This document shows positions 46,585-61,462 of a DNA stretch of 64,000 nucleotides, in pieces. How positions within the stretch are numbered: position 1 is the first letter of the stretch; each line of letters opens with the position of its first letter. Under the pieces are notes generated by a model. The model saw only the letters and a list, made by a program, of their open reading frames with translations, had not been told where the DNA came from and made no database searches. The position numbers were made by a program, and so were the translations under genes. Origin of the DNA: an uncultured Latescibacterota bacterium (GTDB lineage Bacteria; Latescibacterota; UBA2968); NCBI GenBank assembly GCA_958295785.1, contig OY282377.1:3534896-3598895 (forward strand), given 5' to 3'.

Positions 46585-46864
46585 GCGAGATACAAATTAC
46601 GCCCTGCTTTCGCCGCGCTTAGGAGAAGGCCAGCGCGGGATTGCTCGATGGGCAGTAGCTTCCCATTTGCGCGATTTATTCCCCTTCGACAACCGGATGG
46701 CCGTCTTCACCGCGTTCTGGGATCCTCGGATCTTCGTCGGTGAGGATGGCTTCTGACTCAGTGGGAGGGTCTTGAGTCTCATGGTTTATCTCCTTGAATT
46801 GACCCAAGAGGGTCAGCCCTTCATTTAGCTTGGGATTAGGGCATCAAAAATTGCATCTAATTCC
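46585..46864. repeat. Direct repeat B copy 1: degenerate copy of the 3' end of the protease gene plus its downstream sequence
   Basis: Approx 95% identical by eye to 47345-47634; a 1-nt deletion (AATCCCAAGC vs AATCCCCAAGC) frameshifts the protease reading frame. Confidence 0.7.
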
Positions 46865-46875
46865 GGTAGCAGTTA

Positions 46876-47085
46876 CTACATGTTTGTGTGGTCCGTCGTC
46901 GTTATTGTCTGCGGTTCTTTTGTTGCCGCTCGGTAAGCGTCAAGTCCGCTGTCGGCCTTTTGCCAGTTTCGATAGACTTCCATGACTTCGTGCACGCCCG
47001 GACGCGCCAATGCCGCTTCCAACATGGCCTTCCGGTCTTGCTCCCGCTTGGAGTCTCGATGCTTGGTTGCGTGTGTATCGCTCAT
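46876..47085 (-). CDS. Small hypothetical protein (69 aa)
   Basis: Strong AGGAGGA RBS 5 nt upstream of the ATG; no recognisable family. Confidence 0.35.
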   Translation of the reverse strand: MSDTHATKHRDSKREQDRKAMLEAALARPGVHEVMEVYRNWQKADSGLDAYRAATKEPQTITTTDHTNM

Positions 47086-47100
47086 TTTATCCTCCTATGT

Positions 47101-47316
47101 TCACATTCGTTGTTTGAAGTGTACGCAAAAATAAAATTGGTAGGCGATCATGTCGCGCTTGTGGGCGATGTCTTTGAGCGCGTAAGGCTTGTCGGCGACC
47201 GTGACTTCAACATCCGCTCCGCCGGGGTTCTAGCTGAACTCGTCAGTGAACAGCGTCTGGAGATCAAAGGTCTCCAGATGCTGTTTGACTTTGTTTCTGT
47301 CGAGAGGCGTCGACAT
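47101..47316 (-). pseudogene. Remnant of the N-terminus (approx first 60 codons) of a third PglX-like methyltransferase copy, with an in-frame TAG
   Basis: Translation MSTPLDRNKVKQHLETFDLQTLFTDEFS*NPGGADVEVTVADKPYALKDIAHKRDMIAYQ parallels MNFNRNTVKRHLENFDLQTLFIEELGWDHGGADTEVTIAGKTYALEAIAHKRGMVAYQ; TGG to TAG at 47229-47231. Confidence 0.6.
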
Positions 47317-47344
47317 TTCAAGGGCCTCACAAGGATGGCGGCGG

Positions 47345-47634
47345 CAGAATACAAATTACGCCCTGCTTTCGCCGTGCTTAGGAGAAGGCCAGCGCGGGAT
47401 TGCTCGATGGGCAGTAGCTTCCCATTTGCGCGATTTATTCCCCTTCGACAACCGGATGGCCGTCTCCACCGCGTTCCGAGTTCCTCGGCTCCGCGTTGGT
47501 GGAGTCGATTTCTGACTCTGTGGAGAGGTCTTGAGTCTCATGGTTTACCTCCTTGAATTGACCCAAGAGGGTCAGCCCTTCATTTAGCTTGGGGATTAGG
47601 GCATTAAAAATTTCATCTAATTCCTGCGGTGATT
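47345..47634. repeat. Direct repeat B copy 2 (functional 3' end of the protease gene and downstream sequence)
   Basis: See copy 1. Confidence 0.7.
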
Positions 47635-48469
47635 TTTCAACTTTTAGACCGATCCTCTCGGCCTCATCCGAGTCAATCACAAATCCGTGCTCGGGATATT
47701 GTTCCACTAAACGACGTGCTATCTTTCTCGATTGTTCATCTGTGTGTTTTGATGATAGCAAACGGATCGCATACTCCTCAGCCACTTGCAAAACTCGTGC
47801 CATTTGTGTGTAATGCACTGCGTCAATATTCTCTATTAAGGGCCGTATAAAATTGGCTGTGTACTCAAGGACAGGCGGCAAAATGGTTTCTATCTTTTTT
47901 CCTGTTCGCCCTAACAACAGCAACATAGTTTGATAGAAAACATTGAGTGCAGCGGCATTTAATCGTTCGAGGGTGTGAACCTCGTCAAGTGCCGACATAA
48001 CATTCTCTCTATCGACATCTCTTATTTGGACATCAAGCGGTCCCAACTCGGCATCTACCCCCAAGTAAATTTGATGTGCGCCGAGGGCAAGAAGTGTGGC
48101 CGCGCTTTTGGCATATCGGGGAATGAGTGCTATGAAACCGGCTCGTCGATTGAAAAGCCGAGCAATCTGATAGGCCACTCGAGTATCCCCGCCCGATGAA
48201 TCTATCAGTAGCAACGCTGGTTGTTCTGAGGATATCTGGCTCTTTCTTTCCAAAAATTCATGTTGCAACCCATCAGAAATTGGTTCTTCGCCAAAGAGGA
48301 ATAGCCAAAGCGGTAGATTCTCAAACTGCAATTGAGAGGGCAGGACAGCGTTCAAAGATCTCACGCTCATCTCTTGCAACTGACATAGCAGACGAGCAAA
48401 CTCGTCATCCAGTTCGGCTTTTTCGCCACAATATATGTCAGCGGTGTATTTCCGTTGGTTTTGGGACAT
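47435..48469 (-). CDS. SDH-family / ClpP-fold serine protease
   Basis: ClpP-like active-site context LLLIDSSGGDTRVAYQIARLF (compare ClpP INSPGG), approx 344 aa. Confidence 0.55.
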   Translation of the reverse strand: MSQNQRKYTADIYCGEKAELDDEFARLLCQLQEMSVRSLNAVLPSQLQFENLPLWLFLFGEEPISDGLQHEFLERKSQISSEQPALLLIDSSGGDTRVAYQIARLFNRRAGFIALIPRYAKSAATLLALGAHQIYLGVDAELGPLDVQIRDVDRENVMSALDEVHTLERLNAAALNVFYQTMLLLLGRTGKKIETILPPVLEYTANFIRPLIENIDAVHYTQMARVLQVAEEYAIRLLSSKHTDEQSRKIARRLVEQYPEHGFVIDSDEAERIGLKVEKSPQELDEIFNALIPKLNEGLTLLGQFKEVNHETQDLSTESEIDSTNAEPRNSERGGDGHPVVEGE

Positions 48470-48572
48470 TCGTCTTCCTCCTTATCAGCACGTTTCTGAC
48501 AATTTAGCCGCCTAACCGAGATTTGTCAAGACAGGAACTTCTCATCATGCCTTGCTCGTGCATTGCTATTGC

Positions 48573-48806
48573 TCACCGCCCCATGCGATACTTGATGTCG
48601 TAGTTGATGATGAAGTCCAATTCCTCGTCCGTGAAGCCGTAGTGTTTGGCCAACACGCGGTCAATTTCGTCGATAATAGGCTTTGATTCCCTATGGTAGT
48701 ACTCATAATCCGTTTGCTTAGTTCCAACAAATTTTTTGTTTTCTTCCAAGTGCAGTTCAAGAGACCTGCCAAGCTTGATGAGTGACTTTCTATTAGTTTT
48801 AGACAT
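48573..48806 (-). pseudogene. Displaced C-terminal fragment (77 codons) of methyltransferase copy 1, separated from the gene body by the IS
   Basis: Begins exactly at the IS left end; tail ...IDEIDRVLAKHYGFTDEELDFIINYDIKY parallels the copy-2 C-terminus ...HEIDEWISTTFSIKPERVEEI. Confidence 0.6.
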
Positions 48807-49900
48807 TTAGGACTTACGCATGCTGAGTTAAAAAAGGGTGCAATTCCGTAAAATTTATCACTTTGAGGAGGTATCAATGCGCCACCCGACGCGTTTGGAT
48901 TACTGTCAGTATCTGCTTAGCAGTCCCCTCAACTATACCCTGACCCATTTCGCCGACCATAGCGAAGGGTTCAGTCATGATATGATCAACCGCTATCTCG
49001 CCGGTGCGCGTATCCCACCCCGCTTGGTGTGGGAACACGTCAAAGACCACATCGCGTTGACGCCCAAAGGCTATGTGATCTTTGATGACACGGTTTTAGA
49101 CAAGCGACACGCACGCAAGATCGCGTTAGTGCGCCGTCAATATAGCGGCAACGCCCAAGGCGTCATCAACGGCATCGGGGTGGTCACATGTGTCTATGTC
49201 AATCCGCAAGAGGATCGGTTCTGGCTGATTGACTATCGGATTTATGACCCGCAAGGCGATGGCAAAACCAAATTGGATCATCTCAAGGACATGCTCTCTG
49301 GGTTGGTCTATCAGAAGCGCCTTCCTTTTACCGGGGTCTTGATGGACAGTTGGTATGCGACCAAAACGGTCATGCTACACATAGAGCAGATGCAAAAAAC
49401 CTATTATTGTCCCCTCAAGACGAACCGGCGCGTGGACGATTCGGCAGGCACAATCCCCTACCAGCGCGTAGATAGCTTAACTTGGACTCAAGAGGAGCGC
49501 AAACAAGGCAAGTCCATTAAAATCAGAGGGTTCCCCAAAGACCACAAAGTGAAATTATTCCGGGTGGCGTCTTCTGCCAGACGCACGGCGTATGTCGTGA
49601 CCAACGACCATGCTCAAAACGATTCTTCAGTGGTACAACAGGTGTGTCACCAAAGATGGAAAATTGAGCAATTTCACCGCGAAGTCAAACAAGTGACCGG
49701 GCTTGAAAAGTGTCAATGCCGGTTGGCACGCATTGTACGAAATCATATTGGGTGTGCGATGTTAGTTTGGATAAGACTCGAGCAGGTGGCCTATCAAACA
49801 GGACAAACCATTTATCAAGTCAAATACCGAGGGCTGGCTGACTTCTTGAGACAACAACTCAAAGCACCTCATATTCCAATGGTGATTGCGTAAGTCCTAA
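48807..49900 (+). mobile_element. Insertion sequence (approx 1.09 kb) with 13-bp perfect terminal inverted repeats TTAGGACTTACGC / GCGTAAGTCCTAA, inserted into methyltransferase copy 1
   Basis: Inverted repeats at 48807-48819 and 49888-49900; flanking CAT/ATG triplet appears duplicated (48804-48806 and 49901-49903). Confidence 0.7.
48877..49893 (+). CDS. DDE transposase (IS4/IS5/IS701-superfamily-like)
   Basis: GAGGAGG RBS; candidate DDE residues in VIFDDTVLDK, VLMDSWYATK and RWKIEQFHREVKQ. Confidence 0.65.
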   Translation: MRHPTRLDYCQYLLSSPLNYTLTHFADHSEGFSHDMINRYLAGARIPPRLVWEHVKDHIALTPKGYVIFDDTVLDKRHARKIALVRRQYSGNAQGVINGIGVVTCVYVNPQEDRFWLIDYRIYDPQGDGKTKLDHLKDMLSGLVYQKRLPFTGVLMDSWYATKTVMLHIEQMQKTYYCPLKTNRRVDDSAGTIPYQRVDSLTWTQEERKQGKSIKIRGFPKDHKVKLFRVASSARRTAYVVTNDHAQNDSSVVQQVCHQRWKIEQFHREVKQVTGLEKCQCRLARIVRNHIGCAMLVWIRLEQVAYQTGQTIYQVKYRGLADFLRQQLKAPHIPMVIA

Positions 49901-52900
49901 CATTTTTCCCAAGTCAATACGAAAATCGCTCACGTCATCAACAGTCAAATGCCAGCAGTCTCCTTTAGTTTCCCAATGCCAAAAGAACAAGCTGGAATTA
50001 AACACACCTGACAACTCCTCTGGTTGAATTCCTTTTGCCGGATAATAAGTTTTAAACTCCCGTGACTTCTTGGAGGCAAGAAAACACTTTACCCACATCA
50101 TCAATCTAATGTTCAAATAGAATGGTTGAGAATCAGTTTTGCGATTAGAGTACAACGTATTCAGTGGGAGAATGTCCCTGTTGATTTTGCTGATAATGGA
50201 TTCTTCAAGTTCCGTTGCAAACTTACGAATAAATCCCTTTCGATAGTTTAGTCTGTTGTAATCCAGGTTGTTAAAAAGATGATTCCTTTCACTGTCGGGA
50301 GCTCTTCCATAAAAGTGAGTAAATCCTGTGGAATGGATGGCAGAATTTCCCTTAGTGCAAAGTATGATTGAAAGTTTCTGATGTACCCCAAAAAATAATG
50401 TAGATGGTCTGTCAGCATAATTACTGATATGCAACATAGGATAGGTTGCGGTTATGACATTTCGAGCTTGATTCATCCTCTTGGTTGACACCCAAGAGAT
50501 AGGAATTATCCACCCCGCATTTCTTTGACCGAGCGAGGTTCCCCGCTCAAGCACGAAGGCGTAAAGGCTGCCGCAGGATTCGGTTTCGTAGCCTTTGACG
50601 GTGTAGCCTTCTTTGGTTTTTTTGACTTTGCTGTATTCCACATACGGCGGATTCCCAATAATCACATCAAAGCCACCCTTGTGCATGATGCCGTAGAACT
50701 CGACGAACCAATGAAACGGCTGATGGCTGTCGCGCCATCGCTGATACGCTCGCCGGCTCTTGGGCTTGACGCCGTATTCACCGGCCAAATACTCGTCCAA
50801 CTCATCGCGCAGATTAGTGAGGCGTTTCCGCAATTTCAACTTCGCGCTGGCAAACGCACTGGCGTCCATCCCAGGTTTCGTCTGCATCTGGCGGAACTGG
50901 CGAAAGGCGCGGTCGGCTTTCTCGGCGCGTTCCTCGATCTGGGGAAGCGACAGTTGCTTGATCAGGTCGCTACTCAATGCTTCCTTCACTTGCGCGAGCG
51001 AAGTGAAGCCGACGAGCGTGTTCCCGGCGCGGACGTTGAAGTCGATGTCGGGCAACGGCTCGATCTGCTCGTAAGTATCCAACTGCGCGACGAGTTTGAG
51101 GAACAGCCGCAGCTTGCAGATTTCCACCGCCTCCTCCATGATATCCACGCCGTAGAGATTGCCGATGATGATCGACTTGAGAATGAAATAGCGTTCGCTG
51201 GCGTGCTCTTCAACCTGTTGCAACACTTGGCGAAAATCGCGCAGTTTCTCGGGGCGGTGCTTGCGGTTCAAGCGTTCCAAGTCGTCGAGGAAACCGCGCA
51301 TGGCCTCCAAGCAGGCGACGTAGAGCGGCTCCAAAATGTTGAGCGCGGCGAATAGGAATGCGCCCGAGCCGCAGGTGGGATCGAGGACGGAGACCGCGTT
51401 GATCGCCTTCCAAAAAGCGTGCACCAGTTCCGGCCCCTCGCTGCTCGCAATGACGTCTTGGGCAAACTTTTCGATGTCCAAATTGTACGTGATCAGATCG
51501 TTGATCGACGCGATTGCACCAGCGGCGAGTTTGGCGCGGATGTCCTCATAGCGTTGGCGGCGGGCAATGTGCTCGCGCCACGTCTCGGTCGGCAGAGCGT
51601 ATTCGGGCGGGGCCGCTTCGTTCCAGCCATCGCGCTTTGCTATGTCGTCCAGACCGGCGGCGATCTCCGGCGGCAGGGCGCGTTTTTCGGCAAGGTCCGC
51701 GTTGTTGTGCAGATCGTAGGTGATGCCGTGACGCACCGCCTCGTGAAAGTAGCGATCCGGGGCGTCCGACAGCAACCGCCATATCCAGCCATCGGGCGAG
51801 AAGGCGATGGCGCATGCCTTTCGCGCTCGGTCGAACAAGAACGGAATGATGCTGTTGCGGCTAATGTAGCCGGTAATGTCTTCCTTGGTGTAGTACGCCC
51901 CCATCTGTTTCTGGTTGATGTACTTCTCGAAAATGTAGCCGAGCACATCGGGGTTGATCTCGTTGTCGTTGCGGAGCGGCCGGTCGTCGAGATGCCATTG
52001 GTACGCGTCGAAGAACGCGAAAATCTGTTCAAAGGCTTCGTCGGGAATGTGAATTTCCGGGTTGTCCCGCTCCAAGTCATGCACCTCGAACAAGCCGCCG
52101 TTGAGATAGGGGACTTTGCCGATCAGGGCGACCAAGGCGGGGGCGCGGTCAGCTTCGGGCTGTCCCAAGCCCTCGTGAAACAGCCGCAACAGGAACAGCC
52201 GGTAAAAGCCGAGGAAGTTGCCCTCGCCCTGTTGCTGGCGCACCCGTTCCAAACGGTCGCGCAGATAGTTTGGGTTGTTGTCGAGAAAACCGCGCTTCTG
52301 GATGAAGTAAATGAACATCATGCGATTGAGCATCAGCGAGGCGTACCACTCGCGGTCAGTCAAATTTTCAATGCCCTCGATGAAGTCCAGAAACGCGCTG
52401 TGCTCTTTCTTGAACCGGTCATAGAATCGCTTGGCGACTTTCTCCACATCGAAAGCCGCCCGCACTCGGCTCGTCACATCGACAAGGGTGAGGGCTTCTT
52501 CCTCCTCCAGCGCGAAGGCGATTTGCTCTAACTTCTGGACCAGGGATTCGCCCGATTGCCCCCGATCATAGATATGCTGTCGAGACCGATCGGGGCGACC
52601 CGGTTCGCGCTTGACCCATTGCCAATACTGGGCATCGGCGCGTGCGTAGATGATGAGGTGTTCGCGGACGGTCTTGGCGACATTCCGCTCGATCTTCTGC
52701 CGAGTGGGGTAATCGGGCAAGGCCCTGTCCGAATCCGCCATGTATTGATAGGCAACCATACCGCGCTTGTGGGCGATGGCCTCGAGCGCGTAAGTCTTAC
52801 CGGCGATAGTAACCTCGGTATCCGCTCCGCCGTGGTCCCAGCCGAGTTCTTCAATGAAGAGCGTCTGAAGATCGAAGTTCTCCAGATGTCGTTTGACTGT

Positions 52901-52918
52901 GTTTCTGTTGAAATTCAT
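49859..52918 (-). CDS. PglX/DrmMI-like (Eco57I-superfamily) N6-adenine DNA methyltransferase, copy 1; TRD truncated by the IS, so likely inactivated
   Basis: Motif I VLDPTCGSGAFL, motif IV IIGNPPYV; last 13 aa (LGLTQSPLEYEVL) are encoded by the IS right end. Confidence 0.75.
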   Translation of the reverse strand: MNFNRNTVKRHLENFDLQTLFIEELGWDHGGADTEVTIAGKTYALEAIAHKRGMVAYQYMADSDRALPDYPTRQKIERNVAKTVREHLIIYARADAQYWQWVKREPGRPDRSRQHIYDRGQSGESLVQKLEQIAFALEEEEALTLVDVTSRVRAAFDVEKVAKRFYDRFKKEHSAFLDFIEGIENLTDREWYASLMLNRMMFIYFIQKRGFLDNNPNYLRDRLERVRQQQGEGNFLGFYRLFLLRLFHEGLGQPEADRAPALVALIGKVPYLNGGLFEVHDLERDNPEIHIPDEAFEQIFAFFDAYQWHLDDRPLRNDNEINPDVLGYIFEKYINQKQMGAYYTKEDITGYISRNSIIPFLFDRARKACAIAFSPDGWIWRLLSDAPDRYFHEAVRHGITYDLHNNADLAEKRALPPEIAAGLDDIAKRDGWNEAAPPEYALPTETWREHIARRQRYEDIRAKLAAGAIASINDLITYNLDIEKFAQDVIASSEGPELVHAFWKAINAVSVLDPTCGSGAFLFAALNILEPLYVACLEAMRGFLDDLERLNRKHRPEKLRDFRQVLQQVEEHASERYFILKSIIIGNLYGVDIMEEAVEICKLRLFLKLVAQLDTYEQIEPLPDIDFNVRAGNTLVGFTSLAQVKEALSSDLIKQLSLPQIEERAEKADRAFRQFRQMQTKPGMDASAFASAKLKLRKRLTNLRDELDEYLAGEYGVKPKSRRAYQRWRDSHQPFHWFVEFYGIMHKGGFDVIIGNPPYVEYSKVKKTKEGYTVKGYETESCGSLYAFVLERGTSLGQRNAGWIIPISWVSTKRMNQARNVITATYPMLHISNYADRPSTLFFGVHQKLSIILCTKGNSAIHSTGFTHFYGRAPDSERNHLFNNLDYNRLNYRKGFIRKFATELEESIISKINRDILPLNTLYSNRKTDSQPFYLNIRLMMWVKCFLASKKSREFKTYYPAKGIQPEELSGVFNSSLFFWHWETKGDCWHLTVDDVSDFRIDLGKMLGLTQSPLEYEVL

Positions 52919-52958
52919 GGTGAAACCTCTACTGCGAAACTACGAAAAACGCGAAAAG
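50650..52958. repeat. Approx 2.3-kb near-identical direct repeat (copy 1) covering the methyltransferase 5' leader through the NPPY motif
   Basis: Matches 55195-57503; identity degrades at the low-coordinate boundary. Confidence 0.8.
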
Positions 52959-53040: not shown

Positions 53041-54009
53041 TCAGGCCAACTCGACTCCCCGCAACTCACTGCCGAGTGAAAGGTTATCCGGTGCAGGAAA
53101 CCACTCGTCATTGGCTGGCAGAAGTAGTTCACTTCTGAGTTGCTCTTCGTACCTACTCAGCCCATCGGCTCTGCCCATTTTTTTTAAGTGCTTAACTCTA
53201 GACGAGTTCAGATGGATTGAGTAGTCATCCCGAACATAGAGTAGTCCGGTATCGAAAGACCGATGATGCAAGGAGCAAAGAGCCAAGCCATTGCTGACTA
53301 CATCATGCCCTTGTAGATGGGCGTGTGGCACAATATGAGCGGCATCTACAAGGCCCAGTTGAATCCCGCACATTGCACACCTGTAGGAGTACGCTTCTAA
53401 CACCGCTTGCCTGAATCGTGGGTTTCGAGGATACGCAGTACTAGTTACCTGTATTCTCTGTCGCTTGACCGCGATTGGTCGCGCAAGGAATTGCTTATAG
53501 TCTCGGGCTATCCTTTGCAATGCCCGATCAGTATCTCGGTGAAGTGCTGCCTGGTTCTCCACATACAAACCAATGAGATCGGGGCGAAACATGATCACGA
53601 TTTGCCCATCGGTGTCGGTATGAGTTGATAATCCCTGTGCGGCAGCCTCCTGCATGCGCGATAACCGAGTATAGAGAGAAAATCGCTGGACTCTCGATTT
53701 CCGGTCCAAAAGTCTGTCTGGATCCCATGCGCTGAATGTATTTACGTCTGCGGAAAATCCGAGAACGAGAACCTTGTCCTCCCTTTGTCTATTCCTGAGT
53801 TTCTCAGGCAAGTCGCCTGGACATTGGATCCGATATTCATCCGGCGTACGGCTAGTAGAATGGATGTTGCCAATGAAAACAGTAACGAACTTGTCTTTGA
53901 AGAAAAAGCGGTACGGATTGTCTCTGCCATCAAAATAGACGAGGTCTGTGTGTTGTCGAAAAGCGTCGAACAATGCATGGAACAGATCCATCTTGTTTAG
54001 TATGACCAT
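53041..54009 (-). CDS. HNH endonuclease with approx 200-aa uncharacterised N-terminal domain
   Basis: C-terminal HNH motif CAMCGIQLGLVDAAHIVPHAHLQGHDVVSNGLALCSLHHRSFD. Confidence 0.7.
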   Translation of the reverse strand: MVILNKMDLFHALFDAFRQHTDLVYFDGRDNPYRFFFKDKFVTVFIGNIHSTSRTPDEYRIQCPGDLPEKLRNRQREDKVLVLGFSADVNTFSAWDPDRLLDRKSRVQRFSLYTRLSRMQEAAAQGLSTHTDTDGQIVIMFRPDLIGLYVENQAALHRDTDRALQRIARDYKQFLARPIAVKRQRIQVTSTAYPRNPRFRQAVLEAYSYRCAMCGIQLGLVDAAHIVPHAHLQGHDVVSNGLALCSLHHRSFDTGLLYVRDDYSIHLNSSRVKHLKKMGRADGLSRYEEQLRSELLLPANDEWFPAPDNLSLGSELRGVELA

Positions 54010-54037: not shown

Positions 54038-57000
54038 CTAAATTTCTTCAACGCGCTCAGGTTTAATCGAGAATGTCGTCGATATCCACTCGTCAATTTC
54101 GTGCAGACGACCATCGGCGGAAAAATCCATGGGACTCGGCGGCAGGAAACGCTCTCTTAGAGATGGGGGGATGTTCTTCTCTCCGGCTTCGTAGTTGATA
54201 CTACGTACCAAAGAAATAAAAAAAAATAATTCTTTCAAATCAGCCCAACCTGCACCCAGTCCCGAAAGAAATACAACATCGGCCTTTCTCGTCAGTGAAA
54301 GCAACTTTTGATAGTTGAAATTTCCAACGTACTTACCTGCGTTTTTCTTAAAGACAAGCGCGGAATATCTTTGTTGGTGTAGTAATTCTCCAATGGTAGC
54401 CAGCCTGCGTAAATGATCTTTTGGAAACGAAGCGATGGGCGCGAGGAGGTCCGTGAGTAACCAGTTTGTAACGTGGAATCCATCCCCTCGCGTTAGCCAA
54501 TACCAAAAGCAGGCGTCGCCTGCTGTACTCGCGAGCGCGGCAAATGCTATCTCATCAGAGGGCAGTGTCAGCCAGCCGCACTGAGCGGGATCGAGCACAC
54601 ATCCGTCATCTACGTGCAATACGGGTGGCTGTTCAAGATATGTAGAAATGAAATTCCGCGCTGTGGGCGAAAATCCCAATCTGACTGTTGCACCATCTGT
54701 AGCGCAGGGCGAGGTTGGCTTTGAGGGAGATGACTCGATGTGCAATGCCAACAGTTTTGCACAGTAGCGATTCGCCAAGCGGGGAATGCCGAAATTTTCG
54801 GCGGGGACGCCATTAGCTACCTTGTTATAGGTTATGTTGTTCAGCAGAAAAGTCCGAAACGCCGAGCGCCATCTAAAGAGACGAGTGGCGAACGAATCGC
54901 CATCCGATGGGGAACTAAGCCAGATTGTGCATCGCTGGCTTACGCCGGAAAAGAGGGTTGCGGGCCCATTGTCGAAAGAAGAAAACCAATGCGTCCCCCT
55001 GTTGGCGAGTTGCCCCCGGAGGTCAGAAAACTCAAAGCTGAAGGTCACAGAAAGGGGAACAATAACCCCGTAGCGTCCGCACTGATTGGTGATGCGGTGG
55101 GATTGCATGACCACGTATCCATAAATGTCCGGGAATTTCAGGGACTTGGGCGACTGCACAACGTATTCCAGTGACTTGCAGTTGATATACGGCGGGTTCC
55201 CGATCACCACATCAAAGCCGCCCTTGTGCATGATGCCGTAGAACTCGACGAACCAATGAAACGGCTGGTGGCTGTCGCGCCATCGCTGATACGCTCGCCG
55301 GCTCTTGGGCTTGACGCCGTATTCACCGGCCAAATACTCGTCCAATTCGTCGCGCAGATTGGTGAGGCGTTTCCGCAATTCCGACTTCGCGCTGGCAAAC
55401 GCACTGGCATCCATCCCAGGTTTCGTCTGCATGGCGTGGAACTGGCGAAAGGCGTGGTCGGCTTTCTCGGCGCGTTTCTCGATCTGGGGAAGCGACAGTT
55501 GCTTGATCAGGTCGCTACTCAATGCTTCCTTCACTTGCGCGAGCGACGTGAAGCCGACGAGCGTGTTCCCGGCGCGGACGTTGAAGTCGATGTCGGGCAA
55601 CGGCTCGATCTGCTCGTAAGTATCCAACTGCGCGACGAGTTTGAGGAACAGCCGTAGCTTGCAGATTTCCACCGCCTCCTCCATGATATCCACGCCATAG
55701 AGATTGCCGATGATGATCGACTTGAGAATGAAATAGCGTTCGCTGGCGTGCTCTTCAACCTGTTGCAACACTTGGCGGAAGTCGCACAGTTTCTCGGGAT
55801 GGTGCTTGCGGTTCGAGCGTTCCAAGTCGTCGAGGAAACCGCGCATGGCCTCCAAGCAGGCGACGTAGAGCGGCTCCAAAATGTTGAGCGCGGCGAATAG
55901 GAATGCGCCCGAGCCGCAGGTGGGATCGAGGACGGAGACCGCGTTGATCGCCTTCCAAAAAGCGCGAATCAGTTCCGGCCCCTCGCTGCTCGCAATGACG
56001 TCTTGGGCAAACTTTTCGATGTCCAAATTGTACGTGATCAGATCGTTGATCGACGCGATTGCACCAGCGGCGAGTTTGGCGCGGATGTCCTCATAGCGTT
56101 GGCGGCGGGCGATGTGCTCGCGCCACGTCTCGGTCGGCAGAGCGTATTCGGGCGGGGCCGCTTCGTTCCAGCCATCGCGCTTTGCTATGTCGTCCAGACC
56201 GGCGGCGATCTCCGGCGGCAGGGCGCGTTTTTCGACAAGGTCCGCGTTGTTGTGCAGATCGTAGGTGATGCCGTGACGCACCGCCTCGTGAAAGTAGCGA
56301 TCCGGGGCGTCCGACAGCAACCGCCATACCCAGCCATCGGGCGAGAAGGCGATGGCGCATGCCTTTCGCGCTCGGTCGAACAAGAACGGAATGATGCTGT
56401 TGCGGCTAATGTAGCCGGTGATGTCTTCCTTGGTGTAGTACGCCCCCATCTGTTTCTGGTTGATGTACTTCTCGAAAATGTAGCCGAGCACATCGGGGTT
56501 GATCTCGTTGTCGTTGCGGAGCGGCCGGTCGTCGAGATGCCATTGGTACGCGTCGAAGAACGCGAAAATCTGTTCAAAGGCTTCGTCGGGAATGTGAATT
56601 TCCGGGTGGTCCCGCTCCAAGTCATGCACCTCGAACAAGCCGCCATTGAGATAGGGGACTTTGCCGATCAGGGCGACCAAGGCGGGGGCGCGGTCGGCTT
56701 CGGGCTGTCCCAAGCCCTCGTGAAACAGCCGCAACAGGAACAGCCGGTAAAAGCCGAGGAAGTTGCCCTCGCCCTGTTGCTGGCGCACCCGTTCCAAACG
56801 GTCGCGCAGATAGTTTGGGTTGTTGTCGAGAAAACCGCGCTTCTGGATGAAGTAAATGAACATCATGCGATTGAGCATCAGCGAGGCGTACCACTCGCGG
56901 TCAGTCAAATTTTCAATGCCCTCGATGAAGTCCAGAAACGCGCTGTGCTCTTTCTTGAACCGATCATAGAATCGCTTGGTGACTTTCTCCACATCGAAAG

Positions 57001-57463
57001 CCGCCCGCACTCGGCTCGTCACATCGACAAGGGTGAGGTCTTCTTCCTCCTCCAGCGCGAAGGCGATTTGCTCTAACTTCTGGACCAGGGATTCGCCCGA
57101 TTGCCCCCGATCATAGATATGCTGTCGAGACCGATCGGGGCGACCCGGTTCGCGCTTGACCCATTGCCAATACTGGGCATCGGCGCGTGCGTAGATGATG
57201 AGGTGTTCGCGGACGGTCTTGGCGACATTCCGCTCGATCTTCTGCCGAGTGGGGTAATCGGGCAAGGCCCTGTCCGAATCCGCCATGTATTGATAGGCAA
57301 CCATACCGCGCTTGTGGGCGATGGCCTCGAGCGCGTAAGTCTTACCGGCGATAGTAACCTCGGTATCCGCTCCGCCGTGGTCCCAGCCGAGTTCTTCAAT
57401 GAAGAGCGTCTGAAGATCGAAGTTCTCCAGATGTCGTTTGACTGTGTTTCTGTTGAAATTCAT
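54038..57463 (-). CDS. PglX/DrmMI-like (Eco57I-superfamily) N6-adenine DNA methyltransferase, copy 2 (1141 aa, apparently intact)
   Basis: Motif I VLDPTCGSGAFL, motif IV VIGNPPYI; N-terminal approx 745 aa approx 97-98% identical (by eye) to copy 1; C-terminal approx 390 aa unrelated. Confidence 0.8.
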   Translation of the reverse strand: MNFNRNTVKRHLENFDLQTLFIEELGWDHGGADTEVTIAGKTYALEAIAHKRGMVAYQYMADSDRALPDYPTRQKIERNVAKTVREHLIIYARADAQYWQWVKREPGRPDRSRQHIYDRGQSGESLVQKLEQIAFALEEEEDLTLVDVTSRVRAAFDVEKVTKRFYDRFKKEHSAFLDFIEGIENLTDREWYASLMLNRMMFIYFIQKRGFLDNNPNYLRDRLERVRQQQGEGNFLGFYRLFLLRLFHEGLGQPEADRAPALVALIGKVPYLNGGLFEVHDLERDHPEIHIPDEAFEQIFAFFDAYQWHLDDRPLRNDNEINPDVLGYIFEKYINQKQMGAYYTKEDITGYISRNSIIPFLFDRARKACAIAFSPDGWVWRLLSDAPDRYFHEAVRHGITYDLHNNADLVEKRALPPEIAAGLDDIAKRDGWNEAAPPEYALPTETWREHIARRQRYEDIRAKLAAGAIASINDLITYNLDIEKFAQDVIASSEGPELIRAFWKAINAVSVLDPTCGSGAFLFAALNILEPLYVACLEAMRGFLDDLERSNRKHHPEKLCDFRQVLQQVEEHASERYFILKSIIIGNLYGVDIMEEAVEICKLRLFLKLVAQLDTYEQIEPLPDIDFNVRAGNTLVGFTSLAQVKEALSSDLIKQLSLPQIEKRAEKADHAFRQFHAMQTKPGMDASAFASAKSELRKRLTNLRDELDEYLAGEYGVKPKSRRAYQRWRDSHQPFHWFVEFYGIMHKGGFDVVIGNPPYINCKSLEYVVQSPKSLKFPDIYGYVVMQSHRITNQCGRYGVIVPLSVTFSFEFSDLRGQLANRGTHWFSSFDNGPATLFSGVSQRCTIWLSSPSDGDSFATRLFRWRSAFRTFLLNNITYNKVANGVPAENFGIPRLANRYCAKLLALHIESSPSKPTSPCATDGATVRLGFSPTARNFISTYLEQPPVLHVDDGCVLDPAQCGWLTLPSDEIAFAALASTAGDACFWYWLTRGDGFHVTNWLLTDLLAPIASFPKDHLRRLATIGELLHQQRYSALVFKKNAGKYVGNFNYQKLLSLTRKADVVFLSGLGAGWADLKELFFFISLVRSINYEAGEKNIPPSLRERFLPPSPMDFSADGRLHEIDEWISTTFSIKPERVEEI

Positions 57464-57503
57464 GGTGAAACCTCTACTGCGAAACTACGAAAAACGCGAA
57501 AAA
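55195..57503. repeat. Approx 2.3-kb near-identical direct repeat (copy 2)
   Basis: See 50650-52958. Confidence 0.8.
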
Positions 57504-57668: not shown

Positions 57669-57686
57669 GACGCGAAAGGGATGTTT

Positions 57687-58052
57687 TACAATTCGTTGAC
57701 GAAACGTTCGTATTCTAATTTTGGGTGATAGCCGAAATTGACGAGCAGGCCGAGTTTCATACCTGTTGATTTCAGGTAATTGATGATTTGGCGCGATGTC
57801 GGTCTTGATTTCCACAATTATTGTGTCGAAACAGAGAAAATCAGGTAGGTAGAACTGCTTCAACGCCTGCCCTTTGTAACGAAGTTTCAATTTTGTCTTT
57901 TCCTTGTGCGGGATATCCGAAGAAGTGAATTCCATTGCGAGGCACTCTTGATAAACAGCTTCGAGAAAGCCGGATCCTTTTTCTTTGTACACTTCAAAGC
58001 AGGCACCGATAATCCGGTAACTTTCTTCCTGATAGACAATTTTTCCAGTCAT
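57687..58052 (-). pseudogene. GxxExxY-family (PD-(D/E)XK-like) protein gene with an internal frameshift or small deletion
   Basis: N-part MTGKIVYQEESYRIIGACFEVYKEKGSGFLEAVYQEC...IIVEIKTDIA in one frame; C-part QIINYLKSTGMKLGLLVNFGYHPKLEYERFVNEL in another; ATG overlaps helicase stop as ATGA. Confidence 0.6.
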
Positions 58053-61000
58053 AATTTTCGCGTCCTTTCGCGCTTTTCGTCGTTCATCAGACCCATAGAG
58101 CAGATAATGCGCGGCTCTTGGCGTTCGTCTTCTTCGTGCATGATGCAAAGCCGGTCGTCATCTCTGAGCGCGATAACCAATTGCGCGAGGGCCTCGTCGG
58201 AGATGCTGCTACGCAACTGGCGGTTCAGCGTATCCACCGCCGTTTGGCGCAGGGGATAGCGGTAAATGTCTTCAATTGTACGCCGCAGCGAATCGGTATC
58301 GAACAACGTGCCTTTGACGTTTTCCGCATAGCTCTTGAGCCTTTCATAAGCGCGAAACCGCGCACCGGATGGCCGGCCGAGATGACCGCCGACCTGCTTT
58401 TCCTCACGGGCGATATGTTCTGCGGCTTTGCGAACCAAATCGTGGTGGGTCTCGTGGCGCGGGAGGGCCGGCGTATCGGGCACGCATGCGGCGGCGTGCA
58501 AAATCTCGAATTGACTTTCGGTCACGCTATTGCCATCGCGATTCATCCACGCCAAGGCATCGTGCCCCTGCGCTGTACGCATATAAACCAGCGCGCCTTC
58601 GGGCCGCTGTGGCGTTTCCGGATATGCCATTGATGAATGCACCACGGATGGCATCGCTTCAATTTTCCGCTCGAGCGATGGATCGGCTGTTGTCGCGTTT
58701 TTCCAAATCTGATACGCATACGAGGCGAGATCGACATCCGTCTCGTCGTCGCTGTCGAGAATCCCCGCCTTTTCGTTGTAGAGGTCGAGCACGGCCCGTT
58801 GATCCTCATCCTCGAAAAACGCCTCGTCCGTTCCCATCACCTCGGCATTGTCGCGGAGGCGCGTCCGAACGCGGGCGCGAAGTCGGATCAAGCGTTCAAT
58901 GCCCTCGGCAGGCAAAAAGGAGCAGCACAAAATATCTCGCGCCTGTTGACCGATGCGGTCCACGCGCCCGGCCCGTTGAATCAAGCGGATAATCGCCCAC
59001 GGCAAATCGTAATTGACAACGATGGCGCAGTCTTGCAGGTTTTGCCCCTCACTGAGCACGTCGGTTGCGACCAGCACGCGCAACTCGCCTCTAGATGAGA
59101 CCCAAGCCGTCTTGTCGTTGCTCTTTGGACTGAACCGCCACGCGAGTTCCGTCGGGTTCGCCATGTCCCCAGTCGCGGCGGCTATCCCGGACACGCCGCG
59201 TGCTTTTAGCTCCATCTCCAAATAGCGCACCGTGTCGGCGAACTGCGTAAAGACCAGAATTTTGCGGTCGGGATGTTCGTCCATGAGCAGGACTTCCAAG
59301 GCGCGGAGTTTCGCGTCTTCAGCCGCCCGCCACGCGCCGAACTGCGCCAACAAATTGAGCAGCGTCTCGGTGTCGGCGACCAAGTTCCTGCGAAGGGCGT
59401 CGCCAAAATGATGCGAGGCCAACCACCGAAACCGCCTTGTGTAGGTGTTGGCAAAGCGTGCGTAGATCGCGGCAGCGCGGTTGCGAAAATCCCTTTCGGC
59501 TCTTAGCGGCGTCGGCTCTGCGGGGGCCTCATTCTCCTCGTCATCCGCATCAAAAAAATCCCCGATAGTCTGATCGGCGTCCTCGTCAAAAGACTGCGGA
59601 TCCAAGAGTCCCGCATCTGTCGTCCCTATCGGAAGCGGCAGGTCATTTTCAAGGGCATACAAAAAAATGAAGTTCCGCAGAACGTGCCGTTCAACCGACA
59701 GCAAGAAGGCGTGGCCGCTGCTCTCCAAGCGTTTGAACAAATTGGTTCGGCAAAAACCCATCAGCCGCTTGCCCGCGCGCGACAAATCGTCCAGCACCTT
59801 CTTTTCTCTCGGCGTGGGTGGCATAGGCGGCGACGCCCCGACGTAGTTGCCGAGTCCATAGCGCGGCAGTTCCAAGCTGTTTATGGCGTCGATCACGTCG
59901 TTTGCAAATAGCCGGGCGTACTGATCGTCAATGTCGAACGGAATCGTCTTTGGAACCCGAGTCGGAAAATACGACCGCGTGCCATCTTCAAAGGTCAGGT
60001 ACTTGCGACCACTGTGCGGATCCGTGTCGGCGTAGTGTGCACGAATAAAACTGCGCGTCCGGCGCACGAGATATAAGCGCATGAGCTCGCGCCAGTCGTC
60101 CGCGTACTCGGATTTTTCAAACGCGGATAGAGACCGCACAGACGCTTGGTGCCGGCGGATGAACTCGGTTTCGCCGATCTCCTGCAACATGCGCTCTGGG
60201 CGAATGCCCAAGTCCTCGTCTTCGGGCACAAACAAGCGGAGTTGGCTGGACAGATCGAGATACGTTTTGTTGTAGGGCGTCGCGGACAGCAGAATACACT
60301 TGCTGTCGTTTTCCCAGATGTATTCTCGGATGGCCCGGTAGCGTTTGCCCTCGCGGTTTCTCAGGTTGTGGCTTTCGTCGATGATCACCAACCGATACCG
60401 GCGCAGGTCGGGCAGTTCGTTGATGACGCGGCTCACCGATAGCACGCGGGCGCGCATGCGGTATTGATCGCGGTAATCCTCCCACATGGAAACGAGGTTT
60501 TTCGGACTTATGATCAGGGTTTCGAGGCCGTGATCGTCTTCGAACACACGCGCCAAGGCCGTCGCCATCAGGGTCTTGCCCAGCCCGACGACATCGCCGA
60601 TGATGACGCCGCCGCGTCGGTTGAGGTGATGCGCGGCGATTTTCACGGCAGCCGTTTGGAAATCGAGGAGTTTGTCGCCAAAATCTTTCGGGATGCGAAA
60701 TTCCGCCAAGCCGGCCCGCGCTTCTTGCGAGAGGTGGTACGCAATCTTGATGTAGATATGGTGCGGCGGGATCAGTTCTTCTCGCGCCCAACTCTCGTCG
60801 ATAATCTCGGCGAGCGCGTCAGAAATATCCACGCACCAGCGGTCATTCCAGCGGTCTTCAAACCACTGGGCGAGTTTTTCGCAGGCGTCTCGGTCGAGCA
60901 CGTCAATGTTGAGTTCGCCCTGTCGGGACAGCCCCGATAGCGTGAGATTGCTGCTTCCGAGATAGCCAACCGTCGGGTTGATCGGATCGGGACGGAATAA

Positions 61001-61462
61001 CAAGTAGAGCTTGGCGTGAAGCGGGTGTTTGAGAAAGAGCTTGACGACGACTTTCTCAGCCTTGATCTGCGCTGCCAACCGCCGCAGACCCGCCTCATCT
61101 TCATTGGTCGGCGCGCCCAAGATCAGTTGTTCCCGAAATTCTTCCGCGAGTCTTTTCTTTATGCGGTGTGCCGCCTGATTGTCGAGCGCGGAGCGATTGC
61201 CCGACAAGCTCGCGGACAGCCGAAACTCGTCGTGTGGCAAGCGTTGCATCCCAACGAGAAGCCGGCAACAATGTCCGACGCCTCCGCGCCACTTTTCCAC
61301 GTATTCATCAATTGACCGCCATCCTCGCAGGTTGAAATAGCCCACGCAAAAATCCGCCCGCTCTGCGATCTCCAGGGTCTCCGCCAACGCGGGATGGAGG
61401 TGTTGTTCAATATTGTCGAAAATTCGGGGCATACATGCTCCTACGGTTTGGAATTGGATCAT
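58049..61462 (-). CDS. Fusion protein: N-terminal PLD-family (single HKD) nuclease-like domain + SNF2-family helicase
   Basis: HKD motif HAKLYLLFRPD...GSSN; SNF2 motifs GLGKTL (I), IIDESHNLRN (II), helicase-C QRAGRVDRIGQ (VI); AGGAGA RBS. Confidence 0.8.
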   Translation of the reverse strand: MIQFQTVGACMPRIFDNIEQHLHPALAETLEIAERADFCVGYFNLRGWRSIDEYVEKWRGGVGHCCRLLVGMQRLPHDEFRLSASLSGNRSALDNQAAHRIKKRLAEEFREQLILGAPTNEDEAGLRRLAAQIKAEKVVVKLFLKHPLHAKLYLLFRPDPINPTVGYLGSSNLTLSGLSRQGELNIDVLDRDACEKLAQWFEDRWNDRWCVDISDALAEIIDESWAREELIPPHHIYIKIAYHLSQEARAGLAEFRIPKDFGDKLLDFQTAAVKIAAHHLNRRGGVIIGDVVGLGKTLMATALARVFEDDHGLETLIISPKNLVSMWEDYRDQYRMRARVLSVSRVINELPDLRRYRLVIIDESHNLRNREGKRYRAIREYIWENDSKCILLSATPYNKTYLDLSSQLRLFVPEDEDLGIRPERMLQEIGETEFIRRHQASVRSLSAFEKSEYADDWRELMRLYLVRRTRSFIRAHYADTDPHSGRKYLTFEDGTRSYFPTRVPKTIPFDIDDQYARLFANDVIDAINSLELPRYGLGNYVGASPPMPPTPREKKVLDDLSRAGKRLMGFCRTNLFKRLESSGHAFLLSVERHVLRNFIFLYALENDLPLPIGTTDAGLLDPQSFDEDADQTIGDFFDADDEENEAPAEPTPLRAERDFRNRAAAIYARFANTYTRRFRWLASHHFGDALRRNLVADTETLLNLLAQFGAWRAAEDAKLRALEVLLMDEHPDRKILVFTQFADTVRYLEMELKARGVSGIAAATGDMANPTELAWRFSPKSNDKTAWVSSRGELRVLVATDVLSEGQNLQDCAIVVNYDLPWAIIRLIQRAGRVDRIGQQARDILCCSFLPAEGIERLIRLRARVRTRLRDNAEVMGTDEAFFEDEDQRAVLDLYNEKAGILDSDDETDVDLASYAYQIWKNATTADPSLERKIEAMPSVVHSSMAYPETPQRPEGALVYMRTAQGHDALAWMNRDGNSVTESQFEILHAAACVPDTPALPRHETHHDLVRKAAEHIAREEKQVGGHLGRPSGARFRAYERLKSYAENVKGTLFDTDSLRRTIEDIYRYPLRQTAVDTLNRQLRSSISDEALAQLVIALRDDDRLCIMHEEDERQEPRIICSMGLMNDEKRERTRKL

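What the first reader, a model, noticed from the sequence alone, without database searches (positions are those of the whole stretch)
48573..52918. IS insertion splits methyltransferase copy 1; the junctions are reconstructible to the base
A 1094-bp IS with perfect 13-bp terminal inverted repeats (48807-48819, 49888-49900) sits in the 3' part of copy 1. The 1019-aa ORF ends with 13 residues (LGLTQSPLEYEVL) translated from the IS right end. The native C-terminal 77 codons continue in frame immediately left of the IS (48806..48573).

Joining ...GKM|SKTN... restores a roughly 1083-aa protein. Its tail (...EIDRVLAKHYGFTDEELDFI...) parallels the copy-2 tail. A CAT/ATG triplet is present at both junctions, so a 3-bp target duplication is possible. 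Copy 1 is therefore probably non-functional while copy 2 is intact.
Basis: seen in the sequence. Interest (0 to 1): 0.55.

Follow-up and report, generated by a model that had tools for sequence, protein, structure and literature searches.

The report
IS701-type insertion splitting a methyltransferase gene
A small mobile element (an IS701-family insertion sequence) has recently jumped into the specificity-determining end of one of two tandem DNA-methyltransferase genes of a restriction-like defence locus, almost certainly knocking that copy out; this is a clean but ordinary example of a well-known kind of event.

Summary
An insertion sequence lies at 48808-49899, and removing it with one target repeat (1097 bp) gives an uninterrupted 1082-aa ORF.

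Two details need correcting.
- Sixty-nine related IS copies, plus a 98%-identical copy in a sister genome, show 12-bp termini (TAGGACTTACGC) and a 5-bp target duplication.
- Here the duplication is ACATT (48803-48807 and 49900-49904).

The transposase passes the NCBIfam IS701 model (398 bits, cut-off 250).

The restored protein matches a REBASE-derived "Type IIG" profile end to end. It aligns without gaps across the junction with its eight closest homologs. Its last 37 residues are identical to the tails of some close homologs (e.g. P0003, P0007), and the motif is near-invariant in most of the family.

The gene is neither PglX nor DrmMI. It is the MTase-TRD partner of a PLD-nuclease/SNF2-helicase protein. 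Copies 1 and 2 share 2316 bp at 98.3% identity and diverge right after NPPY into different recognition domains.

A sister genome has the same tandem layout with an intact copy 1 that carries yet another TRD.

Loss of function of copy 1 is inferred, not shown. The case is ordinary: a new member of a known kind.

The parts
48808..49899 (+). Insertion sequence, 1092 bp, IS701 family. The strand given is that of the transposase, which is opposite to the interrupted gene.
   Evidence: Boundaries come from comparing 69 related copies and a 98.1%-identical copy in the sister genome (L090). There is only one copy in this window.
48808..48819 (+). Left terminal inverted repeat, TAGGACTTACGC (12 bp).
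   Evidence: The same terminus is found in elements from Latescibacterota, Poribacteria, Chloroflexota, cyanobacteria, Psychrobacter and Acinetobacter.
49888..49899 (+). Right terminal inverted repeat, GCGTAAGTCCTA (12 bp). It is a perfect complement of the left repeat.
48877..49893 (+). Transposase gene, 338 aa. It starts at an ATG preceded by GAGGAGG and carries a DDE domain.
   Evidence: NCBIfam NF049921 (IS701_2) scores 397.8 bits against a cut-off of 250. Pfam finds DDE_Tnp_1 and DDE_5. The exact 338-aa protein is on record, in a 90% cluster of 355 members.
48803..48807 (.). Target-site duplication, left copy (ACATT).
49900..49904 (.). Target-site duplication, right copy (ACATT).
49901..52918 (-). 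Methyltransferase copy 1, native 5' part (codons 1-1006). As it stands, the frame runs on into the IS for 13 codons and stops at 49859-49861.
   Evidence: Motif I (DPTCGSGAF, residue 513) and motif IV (NPPY, residue 756) are intact.
48573..48803 (-). Methyltransferase copy 1, detached 3' part. It holds native codons 1007-1082 (SKTN...KYRMGR) and the stop. The ATG at 48804-48806 that opens the 77-codon ORF is part of the duplicated ACATT.
50642..52957 (-). Copy-1 half of the 2316-bp duplicated segment. It spans 39 bp upstream of the start codon plus codons 1-759. It is 98.3% identical to 55187-57502.
54038..57463 (-). Methyltransferase copy 2, intact at 1141 aa. It has the same N-terminal 759 residues as copy 1 but a different C-terminal recognition domain.
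53041..54009 (-). MTaX1 + HNH endonuclease gene, lying between the two methyltransferase copies.
   Evidence: Pfam finds MTaX1 (2.7e-17) and HNH_2 (3.1e-11). All 7 contigs that carry its 90% cluster also carry the copy-2-type MTase.
58049..61462 (-). PLD(HKD)-nuclease + SNF2-helicase protein (1137 aa). It is the likely restriction/motor partner of the methyltransferases.
   Evidence: Pfam finds PLDc_2, SNF2-rel_dom and Helicase_C. PADLOC 'HKD+Snf2' scores 3.2e-48. The HAK..GSSN, GLGKT and DESH motifs are present. The same gene pair recurs in L001, L085 and L086.
47136..47303 (-). Decayed 5' remnant of a third methyltransferase copy. It is 79% identical to copies 1 and 2 and has an in-frame TAG.

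Best explanation
A 1092-bp IS701-family insertion sequence transposed into the 3' part of methyltransferase copy 1, within its target-recognition domain. It has 12-bp terminal inverted repeats (TAGGACTTACGC) and one DDE transposase gene, and its clade duplicates 5 bp of AT-rich target. Here it duplicated ACATT.

The insertion cuts the gene after codon 1006 of 1082. The gene now encodes 1006 native residues plus 13 IS-derived residues. The last 76 native codons are stranded downstream of the IS.

The stranded piece includes the most conserved C-terminal motif of the family, so the copy-1 product has most likely lost DNA recognition and therefore function (inferred).

The interrupted gene is the MTase-TRD component of a restriction-like module. 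Its likely partner is the adjacent PLD-nuclease/SNF2-helicase protein. This genome carries two such MTase genes in tandem, with near-identical N-terminal 759 residues and different TRDs.

If the TRD-bearing protein directs both modification and restriction, as in Type I, III and ISP systems, then losing copy 1 removes one specificity harmlessly. Copy 2 would keep the locus working (inferred).

The event looks recent. The duplication and inverted repeats are perfect, the transposase is full length, and the split gene has no other lesion.
For: Shown by sequence and tools:
- Inverted repeats, direct repeats and an in-frame 1082-aa restoration.
- IS701 assignment above the curated cut-off.
- A 5-bp duplication with 12-bp ends in 42 of 69 related copies, and in a 98.1%-identical copy in the sister genome with duplication AAGAT.
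- Duplications in relatives are 77% A+T, with A or T at positions 1 and 5. ACATT fits this.
- The insertion lies in the AT-rich TRD part of the gene, 58% AT against 42% in the N-terminal part.
- At least 3 transposase variants of the same 90% cluster lie on the 5.66-Mb source contig, so the IS is multi-copy there.
- The restored protein matches PDLC03628 end to end and more than 100 full-length homologs at 100% coverage.
- The alignment is gap-free across the junction, and the C-terminal 37 residues are identical to those of some homologs.
- The AF2 model gives about 63-97 block-mean pLDDT, mostly 84 or higher, to residues 1007-1079, which form helices 1008-1027 and 1047-1079. The lost piece is therefore structured.
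- Both copies keep motifs I and IV.
- The sister locus L001 has the same helicase - MTase - MTaX1-HNH - MTase order, with an uninterrupted 1087-aa second MTase and no IS.
- The helicase-MTase pairing recurs in L085 and L086.
Against: - No empty-site allele with this same TRD was found. The sister genome carries a different TRD at that position, and a metagenome scan for the restored junction gave only a chance hit.
- Loss of function is not demonstrated. The truncated ORF keeps all catalytic motifs and about 75% of the TRD.
- Copy 2 naturally lacks the conserved C-terminal motif, so that motif is not indispensable for every member of the family.
- The partnership with the PLD-SNF2 protein rests on gene neighbourhood only. 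One relative (L084) has the MTase without the helicase.
- Classic IS701 elements are 1400-1550 bp with 4-bp duplications (PMC2266710). This clade is atypical for the family.
Confidence: 0.9

Rival explanations
1. The element is: 1094 bp, 13-bp inverted repeats and a 3-bp (CAT) target duplication.
For: In this single copy the 13th bases are complementary and CAT flanks both ends.
Against: - Across copies within a single genome, the 13th position varies and always equals the outer base of a 5-bp flush repeat.
- The 12-bp-end model gives a 5-bp duplication in 42 of 69 copies.
- In the 13-bp model, the 3-bp repeat is always the core of that same 5-mer.
- The near-identical copy L090 has TAGGAC...GTCCTA flanked by AAGAT on both sides.
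Confidence: 0.04
2. The truncated copy-1 protein is still active, with the same or an altered specificity. On this reading the insertion remodels the system rather than inactivating one copy.
For: - Motifs I and IV and TRD residues 760-1006 are retained.
- Copy 2 works, presumably, without the conserved tail motif.
Against: - The 76 lost residues are predicted as confident helices.
- They include a motif that is invariant or nearly so across most homologs aligned, whatever their TRD.
- The distant TRD alignment with copy 2 extends past the junction, so the lost part belongs to the shared TRD fold.
Confidence: 0.1
3. Copy 1 was already a decaying pseudogene, and the IS landed in dead DNA.
For: The locus is littered with remnants: a third MTase 5' fragment with a stop codon, a duplicated protease 3' end and a frameshifted GxxExxY gene.
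Against: - Apart from the IS, the 3249-bp restored frame has no stop or frameshift.
- It keeps the catalytic motifs.
- Its conserved tail is intact.
Confidence: 0.05
4. The junctions are an assembly artefact, with an IS copy mis-placed by a long-read assembler.
For: The IS is multi-copy in the source genome, which is a typical cause of mis-joins.
Against: A perfect 5-bp duplication of the type characteristic of this IS clade flanks the element. Removing it restores an exact reading frame. A mis-join would not create that.
Confidence: 0.02

Closest known systems
IS701 family insertion sequences, specifically the short clade that includes ISPlag1 of Planktothrix and related Acinetobacter and Psychrobacter elements. 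From memory, this is the ISAba11 group (Rieck et al. 2012), a paper I could not read here.
   Same: - A single DDE transposase that passes NCBIfam IS701_2.
- 55.6% amino-acid identity to transposases annotated 'IS701-like element ISPlag1 family', and 50% to Acinetobacter plasmid copies.
- Identical termini, (Y)AGGACTTACGC.
- About 1.1 kb in length, with a 5-bp AT-rich duplication.
   Different: - The element is unnamed.
- Its closest relatives, at 77-87% amino-acid identity, are in uncultured Latescibacterota and Poribacteria MAGs.
- It departs from the classic IS701 description of 1400-1550 bp and a 4-bp duplication (PMC2266710).
Type IIG/IIL-like MTase-TRD proteins encoded next to a PLD + SNF-helicase gene. 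These are the 'homologous to Cj0031' loci of Milman et al., NAR 2023 (PMC9881135).
   Same: - A long gamma-type N6-adenine MTase with a C-terminal TRD.
- Eco57I and MmeI_Mtase Pfam domains.
- An adjacent PLD + SNF2 helicase gene.
- TRD variability at the locus.
   Different: - In those loci, TRDs are swapped by programmed inversion.
- Here two full genes lie in direct tandem, and TRD alleles differ between sister genomes.
- No invertase or inverted TRD cassette was seen.
- No member of this family has been characterised biochemically as far as I could find, and there is no PDB sequence hit.
Insertional inactivation of restriction-modification or defence genes by IS elements. ISAba11 inactivating lpxA/lpxC in Acinetobacter (PMC7326120, PMC8532902) is an example of the mechanism from a related IS.
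   Same: Simple insertion with a target duplication inside a coding sequence, giving a truncated product.
   Different: The target here is one of two paralogous specificity-bearing genes, so the expected phenotype is loss of one specificity rather than loss of the whole system.
Type ISP enzymes (LlaGI, LlaBIII) and BREX PglX/BrxX.
   Same: The MTase-TRD fold is related. Foldseek hits include BrxX 9ewz, PglX 8c45, LlaBIII 4xqk, MmeI 5hr4, BpuSI 3s1s and CamA 7lni (the model is poor, so this is only indicative). The predicted logic is shared: an ATP-dependent motor plus nuclease acting with an MTase-TRD.
   Different: - Type ISP is one polypeptide with an Mrr nuclease. Here the nuclease is of PLD type and the nuclease-helicase is a separate protein.
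- BREX needs PglZ, BrxC and BrxL, none of which is at this locus.
- NCBIfam BREX models score far below their cut-offs (55 against 500 bits).

Membership tests
IS701 family (insertion sequences) | A DDE transposase that matches the family model above its curated threshold. | tested here: met
   NF049921 transpos_IS701_2 scores 397.8 bits against a cut-off of 250, covering profile positions 2-317 of 318.
IS701 family (insertion sequences) | Terminal inverted repeats flanking a single transposase ORF. | tested here: met
   Perfect 12-bp inverted repeats at 48808-48819 and 49888-49899.
IS701 family (insertion sequences) | A target duplication of exactly 4 bp and a size of 1400-1550 bp, as in the classic description (De Palmenaer 2008, PMC2266710). 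| tested here: not met
   The duplication is 5 bp and the element is 1092 bp. The whole clade, including annotated 'IS701-like ISPlag1' elements, shares these values. It is therefore a distinct subgroup, not the classic type.
Type IIG restriction-modification enzyme (single-chain nuclease + MTase + TRD) | A gamma-class N6-adenine MTase with motif I and motif IV (NPPY), followed by a C-terminal TRD. | tested here: met
   DPTCGSGAF at residue 513 and NPPY at residue 756. Pfam Eco57I scores 4.6e-26. PADLOC REase_MTase_IIG PDLC03628 scores 1111 bits. Fold hits are to MTase-TRD enzymes.
Type IIG restriction-modification enzyme (single-chain nuclease + MTase + TRD) | An active N-terminal PD-(D/E)xK nuclease domain in the same polypeptide. 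| tested here: inconclusive
   Residues 1-120 are predicted with pLDDT of about 80-88 as a helix-helix-three-strand-helix-three-strand unit. I saw no D...(D/E)xK signature by eye, and no nuclease Pfam hit was found. This was not tested rigorously.
BREX PglX | Matches the PglX model above its cut-off and sits with pglZ, brxC and brxL. | tested here: not met
   The best BREX model scores 55 bits against a cut-off of 500. The neighbours are a PLD-SNF2 helicase, MTaX1-HNH, an SDH protease and an FGGY kinase.
DISARM DrmMI | Encoded together with drmA, drmB (DUF1998) and drmC or drmD. | tested here: not met
   DrmMI profiles match only the MTase core (85.8 bits, two matched stretches, the best at residues 506-710). 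No DUF1998 or DrmA is present at the locus. The helicase scores 119 bits against a cut-off of 610 for DrmD.
Type ISP restriction-modification enzyme | A single polypeptide with an Mrr-type nuclease, an SF2 motor, an MTase and a TRD. | tested here: not met
   The motor-nuclease (58049-61462) and the MTase-TRD are separate genes, and the nuclease is of PLD type.
PLD-SNF2 helicase + Cj0031-like MTase two-gene modules (Milman 2023, PMC9881135) | A long Type II-like MTase-TRD gene adjacent to a gene encoding PLD and SNF-helicase domains. | tested here: met
   This holds in the window and in L001, L085 and L086. Homology to Cj0031 itself was not tested.

The most novel reading that the evidence does not exclude
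The locus may be a multi-specificity, recombination-driven restriction-like system. One PLD-nuclease/SNF2 motor would serve two tandem MTase-TRD proteins, and formerly three.

The TRDs would be exchanged as cassettes by homologous recombination. The anchors would be the 2.3-kb conserved 5' part and the roughly 100-bp conserved 3' tail.

The evidence consistent with this:
- Different TRDs sit at the same position in sister genomes whose flanks are 99.3% identical.
- The conserved part shows a mosaic, gene-conversion-like site pattern.
- The TRD is compositionally foreign.

On this reading the IS hit is one snapshot of rapid specificity turnover, and possibly a tolerated way of silencing one specificity.
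Probability: 0.35. Interest if true: 0.5.

Novelty: new member of a known kind. Interest (0 to 1): 0.25.

Why it matters
The direct value is for annotation.
- The ORFs at 49859-52918 and 48573-48806 are two halves of one pseudogenised gene, not two separate genes.
- The 351-aa GTG-start ORF is a 338-aa transposase.
- The IS boundaries and its 5-bp duplication are now defined for a clade that is abundant in Latescibacterota and Poribacteria MAGs.

The wider interest lies in the host locus. It gives a natural pair of genomes, the window and L001, that differ in the TRD at one position of a tandem MTase array. It also gives a natural knock-out of one copy. With methylome data, TRDs could be assigned to recognition motifs for an uncharacterised PLD-SNF2/MTase defence family.

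Tried and rejected
1. Exact-protein look-ups of P0001, P0009 and the transposase for genomic context returned nothing. Context came instead from the homolog P0002 (L001).
2. A metagenome scan for a 22-nt restored-junction word, meant to find an empty site, gave one hit (L089). It has no flanking similarity and is a chance match.
3. A PDB sequence search with the restored protein gave no hit at E <= 0.01.
4. The AlphaFold model of the restored protein is poor overall: mean pLDDT 59.5, pTM 0.39, and residues 141-640 mostly below 50. I used it only for the N-terminal domain and the TRD/tail. The Foldseek hits are treated as indicative.
5. The 330-aa proteins that are the closest TRD relatives looked at first like free-standing 'silent TRD cassettes'. 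I rejected this. In L088 the upstream MTase frame continues and is broken by a frameshift at a G9 run, and P0123 is a truncated remnant beside a decayed CRISPR-Cas locus.
7. A promoter/terminator scan of 48400-50100 found nothing above the shuffled expectation that would suggest IS-driven expression of the stranded fragment.
8. The Rieck et al. 2012 ISAba11 paper is not held, so the ISAba11-group label rests on my memory.

Full report

Yes.
- On the + strand, 48807-48819 reads TTAGGACTTACGC and 49888-49900 is its exact reverse complement.
- Between them lies a single long ORF on the + strand, 48838/48877-49893.
- On the - strand, the 1019-aa ORF 49859-52918 ends ...DFRIDLGKM followed by LGLTQSPLEYEVL and a stop. 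Those 13 residues are read from the right end of the element.
- Immediately left of the element, 48806-48573 reads MSKTNRKSLIKLGRSLELHLEENKKFVGTKQTDYEYYHRESKPIIDEIDRVLAKHYGFTDEELDFIINYDIKYRMGR*.
- Deleting 1097 bp joins the two parts into one open frame of 1082 aa.

**2. Exact anatomy of the element**

The flanks read ...TAGACATT|TAGGAC...GTCCTA|ACATTTTT... From this one copy alone, the direct repeat could be CAT, ACAT or ACATT, and the inverted repeat 13 or 12 bp. All three readings remove the same 1097 bp.

To settle this I collected related elements. A scan of GTDB representative genomes with the transposase gave 80 loci.
- In 69 of them both ends could be located. The conserved terminus is (Y)AGGACTTACGC.
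- With 12-bp ends, 42 of the 69 copies have a flush direct repeat of exactly 5 bp. Four have 6 bp and two have 4 bp. The rest have lost their repeats.
It always equals the outer base of the 5-bp repeat.
- The duplications are 77% A+T, with A or T at position 1 in 40 of 43 copies and at position 5 in 39 of 43. That explains the apparent complementarity here (A....T).
- The sister genome of this window holds a copy that is 98.1% identical in DNA, flanked by AAGAT|TAGGAC...GTCCTA|AAGAT.

The element is therefore 48808-49899 (1092 bp), with perfect 12-bp inverted repeats and the duplication ACATT at 48803-48807 and 49900-49904.

**3. What the element is**

- The transposase most likely starts at the ATG at 48877, which follows GAGGAGG, giving 338 aa. 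This exact protein is on record.
- It matches NCBIfam NF049921, 'IS701 family transposase', at 397.8 bits against a cut-off of 250. It carries Pfam DDE domains.
- By tblastn it is 55.6% identical to Planktothrix genes annotated 'IS701-like element ISPlag1 family transposase', and 50% identical to Acinetobacter plasmid copies. Both have the same termini.
- The closest relatives, at 77-87% amino-acid identity, are multi-copy elements in Candidatus Latescibacterota and Poribacteria MAGs.
- Its 90% protein cluster has 355 members. At least three variants lie on the 5,660,449-bp source contig. The IS is therefore multi-copy and probably active in this lineage.
- The classic description of IS701 is 1400-1550 bp with a 4-bp duplication (PMC2266710). 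This clade is shorter and makes 5-bp duplications.
- From memory, that corresponds to the ISAba11 subgroup. I could not read the defining paper.

**4. What was hit**

- The restored 1082-aa protein matches PADLOC profile PDLC03628 ('Type IIG restriction enzyme-methyltransferase', REBASE-derived) over residues 1-1082 against profile positions 1-1096 of 1100, at 1111 bits.
- It has Pfam Eco57I and MmeI_Mtase domains.
- More than 100 database homologs of 1080-1150 aa cover 100% of it at 62-78% identity.
- The closest homologs of the C-terminal 328 residues (51-64% identity) align with no gap across the junction. For example, IDLGKM|SKTNRKSL aligns with VDLSQFSDTNRKAL.
- The final 37 residues, SKPIIDEIDRVLAKHYGFTDEELDFIINYDIKYRMGR, are identical to those of P0003 and P0007. 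They are near-invariant across most homologs aligned, including homologs whose recognition domains differ.

**5. The two copies**

- Copy 1 (restored) and copy 2 (54038-57463, 1141 aa) share 2316 bp at 98.3% identity, at 50642-52957 and 55187-57502. The shared stretch includes 39 bp upstream of the start codon.
- Identity ends abruptly a few codons after the NPPY motif. The remaining 320-380 residues are only 22% identical (E = 1e-6).
- These are two enzymes with the same body and different target-recognition domains (TRDs).
- Both copies keep motif I (DPTCGSGAF) and motif IV (NPPY).

**6. The system around it**

Read on the - strand, the locus order is:
1. PhyH
2. FGGY kinase
3. A 1137-aa protein with a PLD/HKD nuclease domain (HAK...GSSN) and an SNF2 ATPase (GLGKT, DESH)
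4. A small GxxExxY gene
5. MTase copy 2
6. An MTaX1 + HNH protein
7. MTase copy 1 with the IS
8. An SDH-type protease
9. Remnants
10. A DprA-like protein

Context from other genomes:
- The PLD-SNF2 gene sits directly upstream of homologous MTases in L001, L085 and L086.
- MTaX1 is described as a possible modified-DNA-discriminating domain of R-M systems (PMC10853773).
- BREX and DISARM models match only the MTase core, far below their cut-offs, and their partner genes are absent.
- No solved structure is detectable by sequence.
- A poor AF2 model (pLDDT 59.5) still places the MTase-TRD part nearest CamA, BrxX/PglX, MmeI, BpuSI, LlaBIII and DrdV.

I therefore read the gene as the modification-and-specificity subunit of an uncharacterised ATP-dependent restriction-like module. 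Its nuclease-motor is the PLD-SNF2 protein. This is an inference from domains and neighbourhood.

**7. Comparison with a sister genome**

L001 (ENA ERZ19489113, a 5.63-Mb contig) is 99.3% identical to the window in the flanking genes. It has the same helicase - MTase (1141 aa) - MTaX1-HNH - MTase order.
- Its second MTase is intact at 1087 aa, with no IS.
- Its TRD has no detectable DNA similarity to the window's. Identity resumes at 99% in the last ~70 bp of the gene and ~30 bp downstream of the stop (48644-48542).
- Other close relatives (P0003-P0005) carry a third TRD on a near-identical N-terminal body.
- Within the shared 2316 bp, the four copies (two per genome) are all 97.8-98.3% identical to each other. 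The site patterns are mosaic: paralogs alike at 10 sites, and the two cross-pairings alike at 9 and 6 sites.
- Single-copy flanks are 99.3% identical.
- This looks like gene conversion plus TRD cassette replacement.
- The window's TRD is also compositionally distinct, at 58% A+T against 42% in the shared part. That may be why an IS preferring AT-rich targets landed there.

**8. Consequence**

Shown:
- The current ORF lacks native residues 1007-1082.
- Those residues are predicted as confident helices (1008-1027 and 1047-1079; block-mean pLDDT 63-97, mostly 84 or higher).
- They include the family's most conserved C-terminal motif.

Inferred:
- The copy-1 product has lost DNA recognition.
- If recognition by the MTase-TRD protein also directs restriction, as in Type I, III and ISP systems, this loss is harmless to the cell and simply removes one specificity. 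Copy 2 is intact.
- The insertion is recent. The duplication and inverted repeats are perfect, the transposase is full length, and the gene has no other lesion.

Not excluded: residual activity of the truncated protein.

**9. Verdict**

This is a correct and carefully described observation of an ordinary event: an IS insertion pseudogenising a restriction-modification-type gene. There are small corrections to the IS boundaries and to the family named for the host gene.

The novelty is limited to an unnamed IS701-family element and a natural knock-out in an uncharacterised PLD-SNF2/MTase defence family with tandem, TRD-swapping methyltransferase genes. That second aspect is the more interesting lead.

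Noticed in passing
window 46590-47624: This stretch holds debris of a further cassette.
- 47136-47303 (-) is the first ~56 codons of a third MTase copy. It is 79% identical to copies 1 and 2 and has an in-frame TAG.
- That remnant is fused directly to 46869-47134, which matches the 69-aa-ORF region downstream of the MTase in L001 at 91.8%.
- 46590-46864 is a 91.7% duplicate of 47349-47624, the 3' end of the SDH-protease gene.
- The full protease gene here (47435-48469) has no DNA similarity to the one in L001.
   Followed up: partly
window 57527-58083: Relative to L001, about 420 bp are inserted between the helicase and MTase copy 2.
- The insert carries a GxxExxY-family gene (TIGR04256, 82 bits).
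- The gene appears frameshifted around 57790. The conserved ...INYLKSTGMKLGLLVNFG... end is in another frame.
- The insert is bounded by 25-50-bp direct repeats, ACGAAAAGCGCGAAAGGACGCGAAAA, at 58054-58083, 57619-57668 and 57527-57577.
- It changes the last residues of the helicase.
- It looks like a small mobile cassette.
   Followed up: partly
window 50642-52957 vs 55187-57502; L001 5417-7732 and 9962-12277: The four copies of the conserved MTase body, two genomes with two paralogs each, are all 97.8-98.3% identical to one another, and the shared differences are mosaic. Flanking single-copy DNA is 99.3% identical. This suggests ongoing gene conversion between the tandem copies.
   Followed up: partly
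window 48573-50641 (excluding the IS): The copy-1 TRD segment is 58% A+T. The shared N-terminal part is 42% and the window as a whole is 44%. The copy-2 TRD is 50%. The recognition domains look compositionally foreign, which is consistent with cassette acquisition.
   Followed up: no
window 45776-46429 and 47435-48469; L001, L084, L086: An SDH-type ClpP-like protease and a DprA-like protein recur downstream of this MTase family. The DprA-like protein matches PADLOC PsyrA at 1.7e-14. The pair recurs in three other genomes, including two where the locus sits in a different chromosomal neighbourhood. It may be part of the same island, or a separate defence pair.
   Followed up: no
L088 494-502; proteins P0121, P0122, P0124, P0126: The closest TRD relatives are recorded as 330-aa proteins that all start MIIGNPPY. 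In L088 this is because the MTase frame is broken at a G9 homopolymer just upstream of NPPY. This could be poly-G phase variation, as known for Cj0031-type enzymes, or a sequencing error. Only one locus was inspected.
   Followed up: partly
L090 1-138 and 1432-2523: The sister genome has a 98.1%-identical copy of the IS with duplication AAGAT. About 1.3 kb away is the right end of another copy, 94% identical. These are signs of IS clustering or expansion in this lineage.
   Followed up: no
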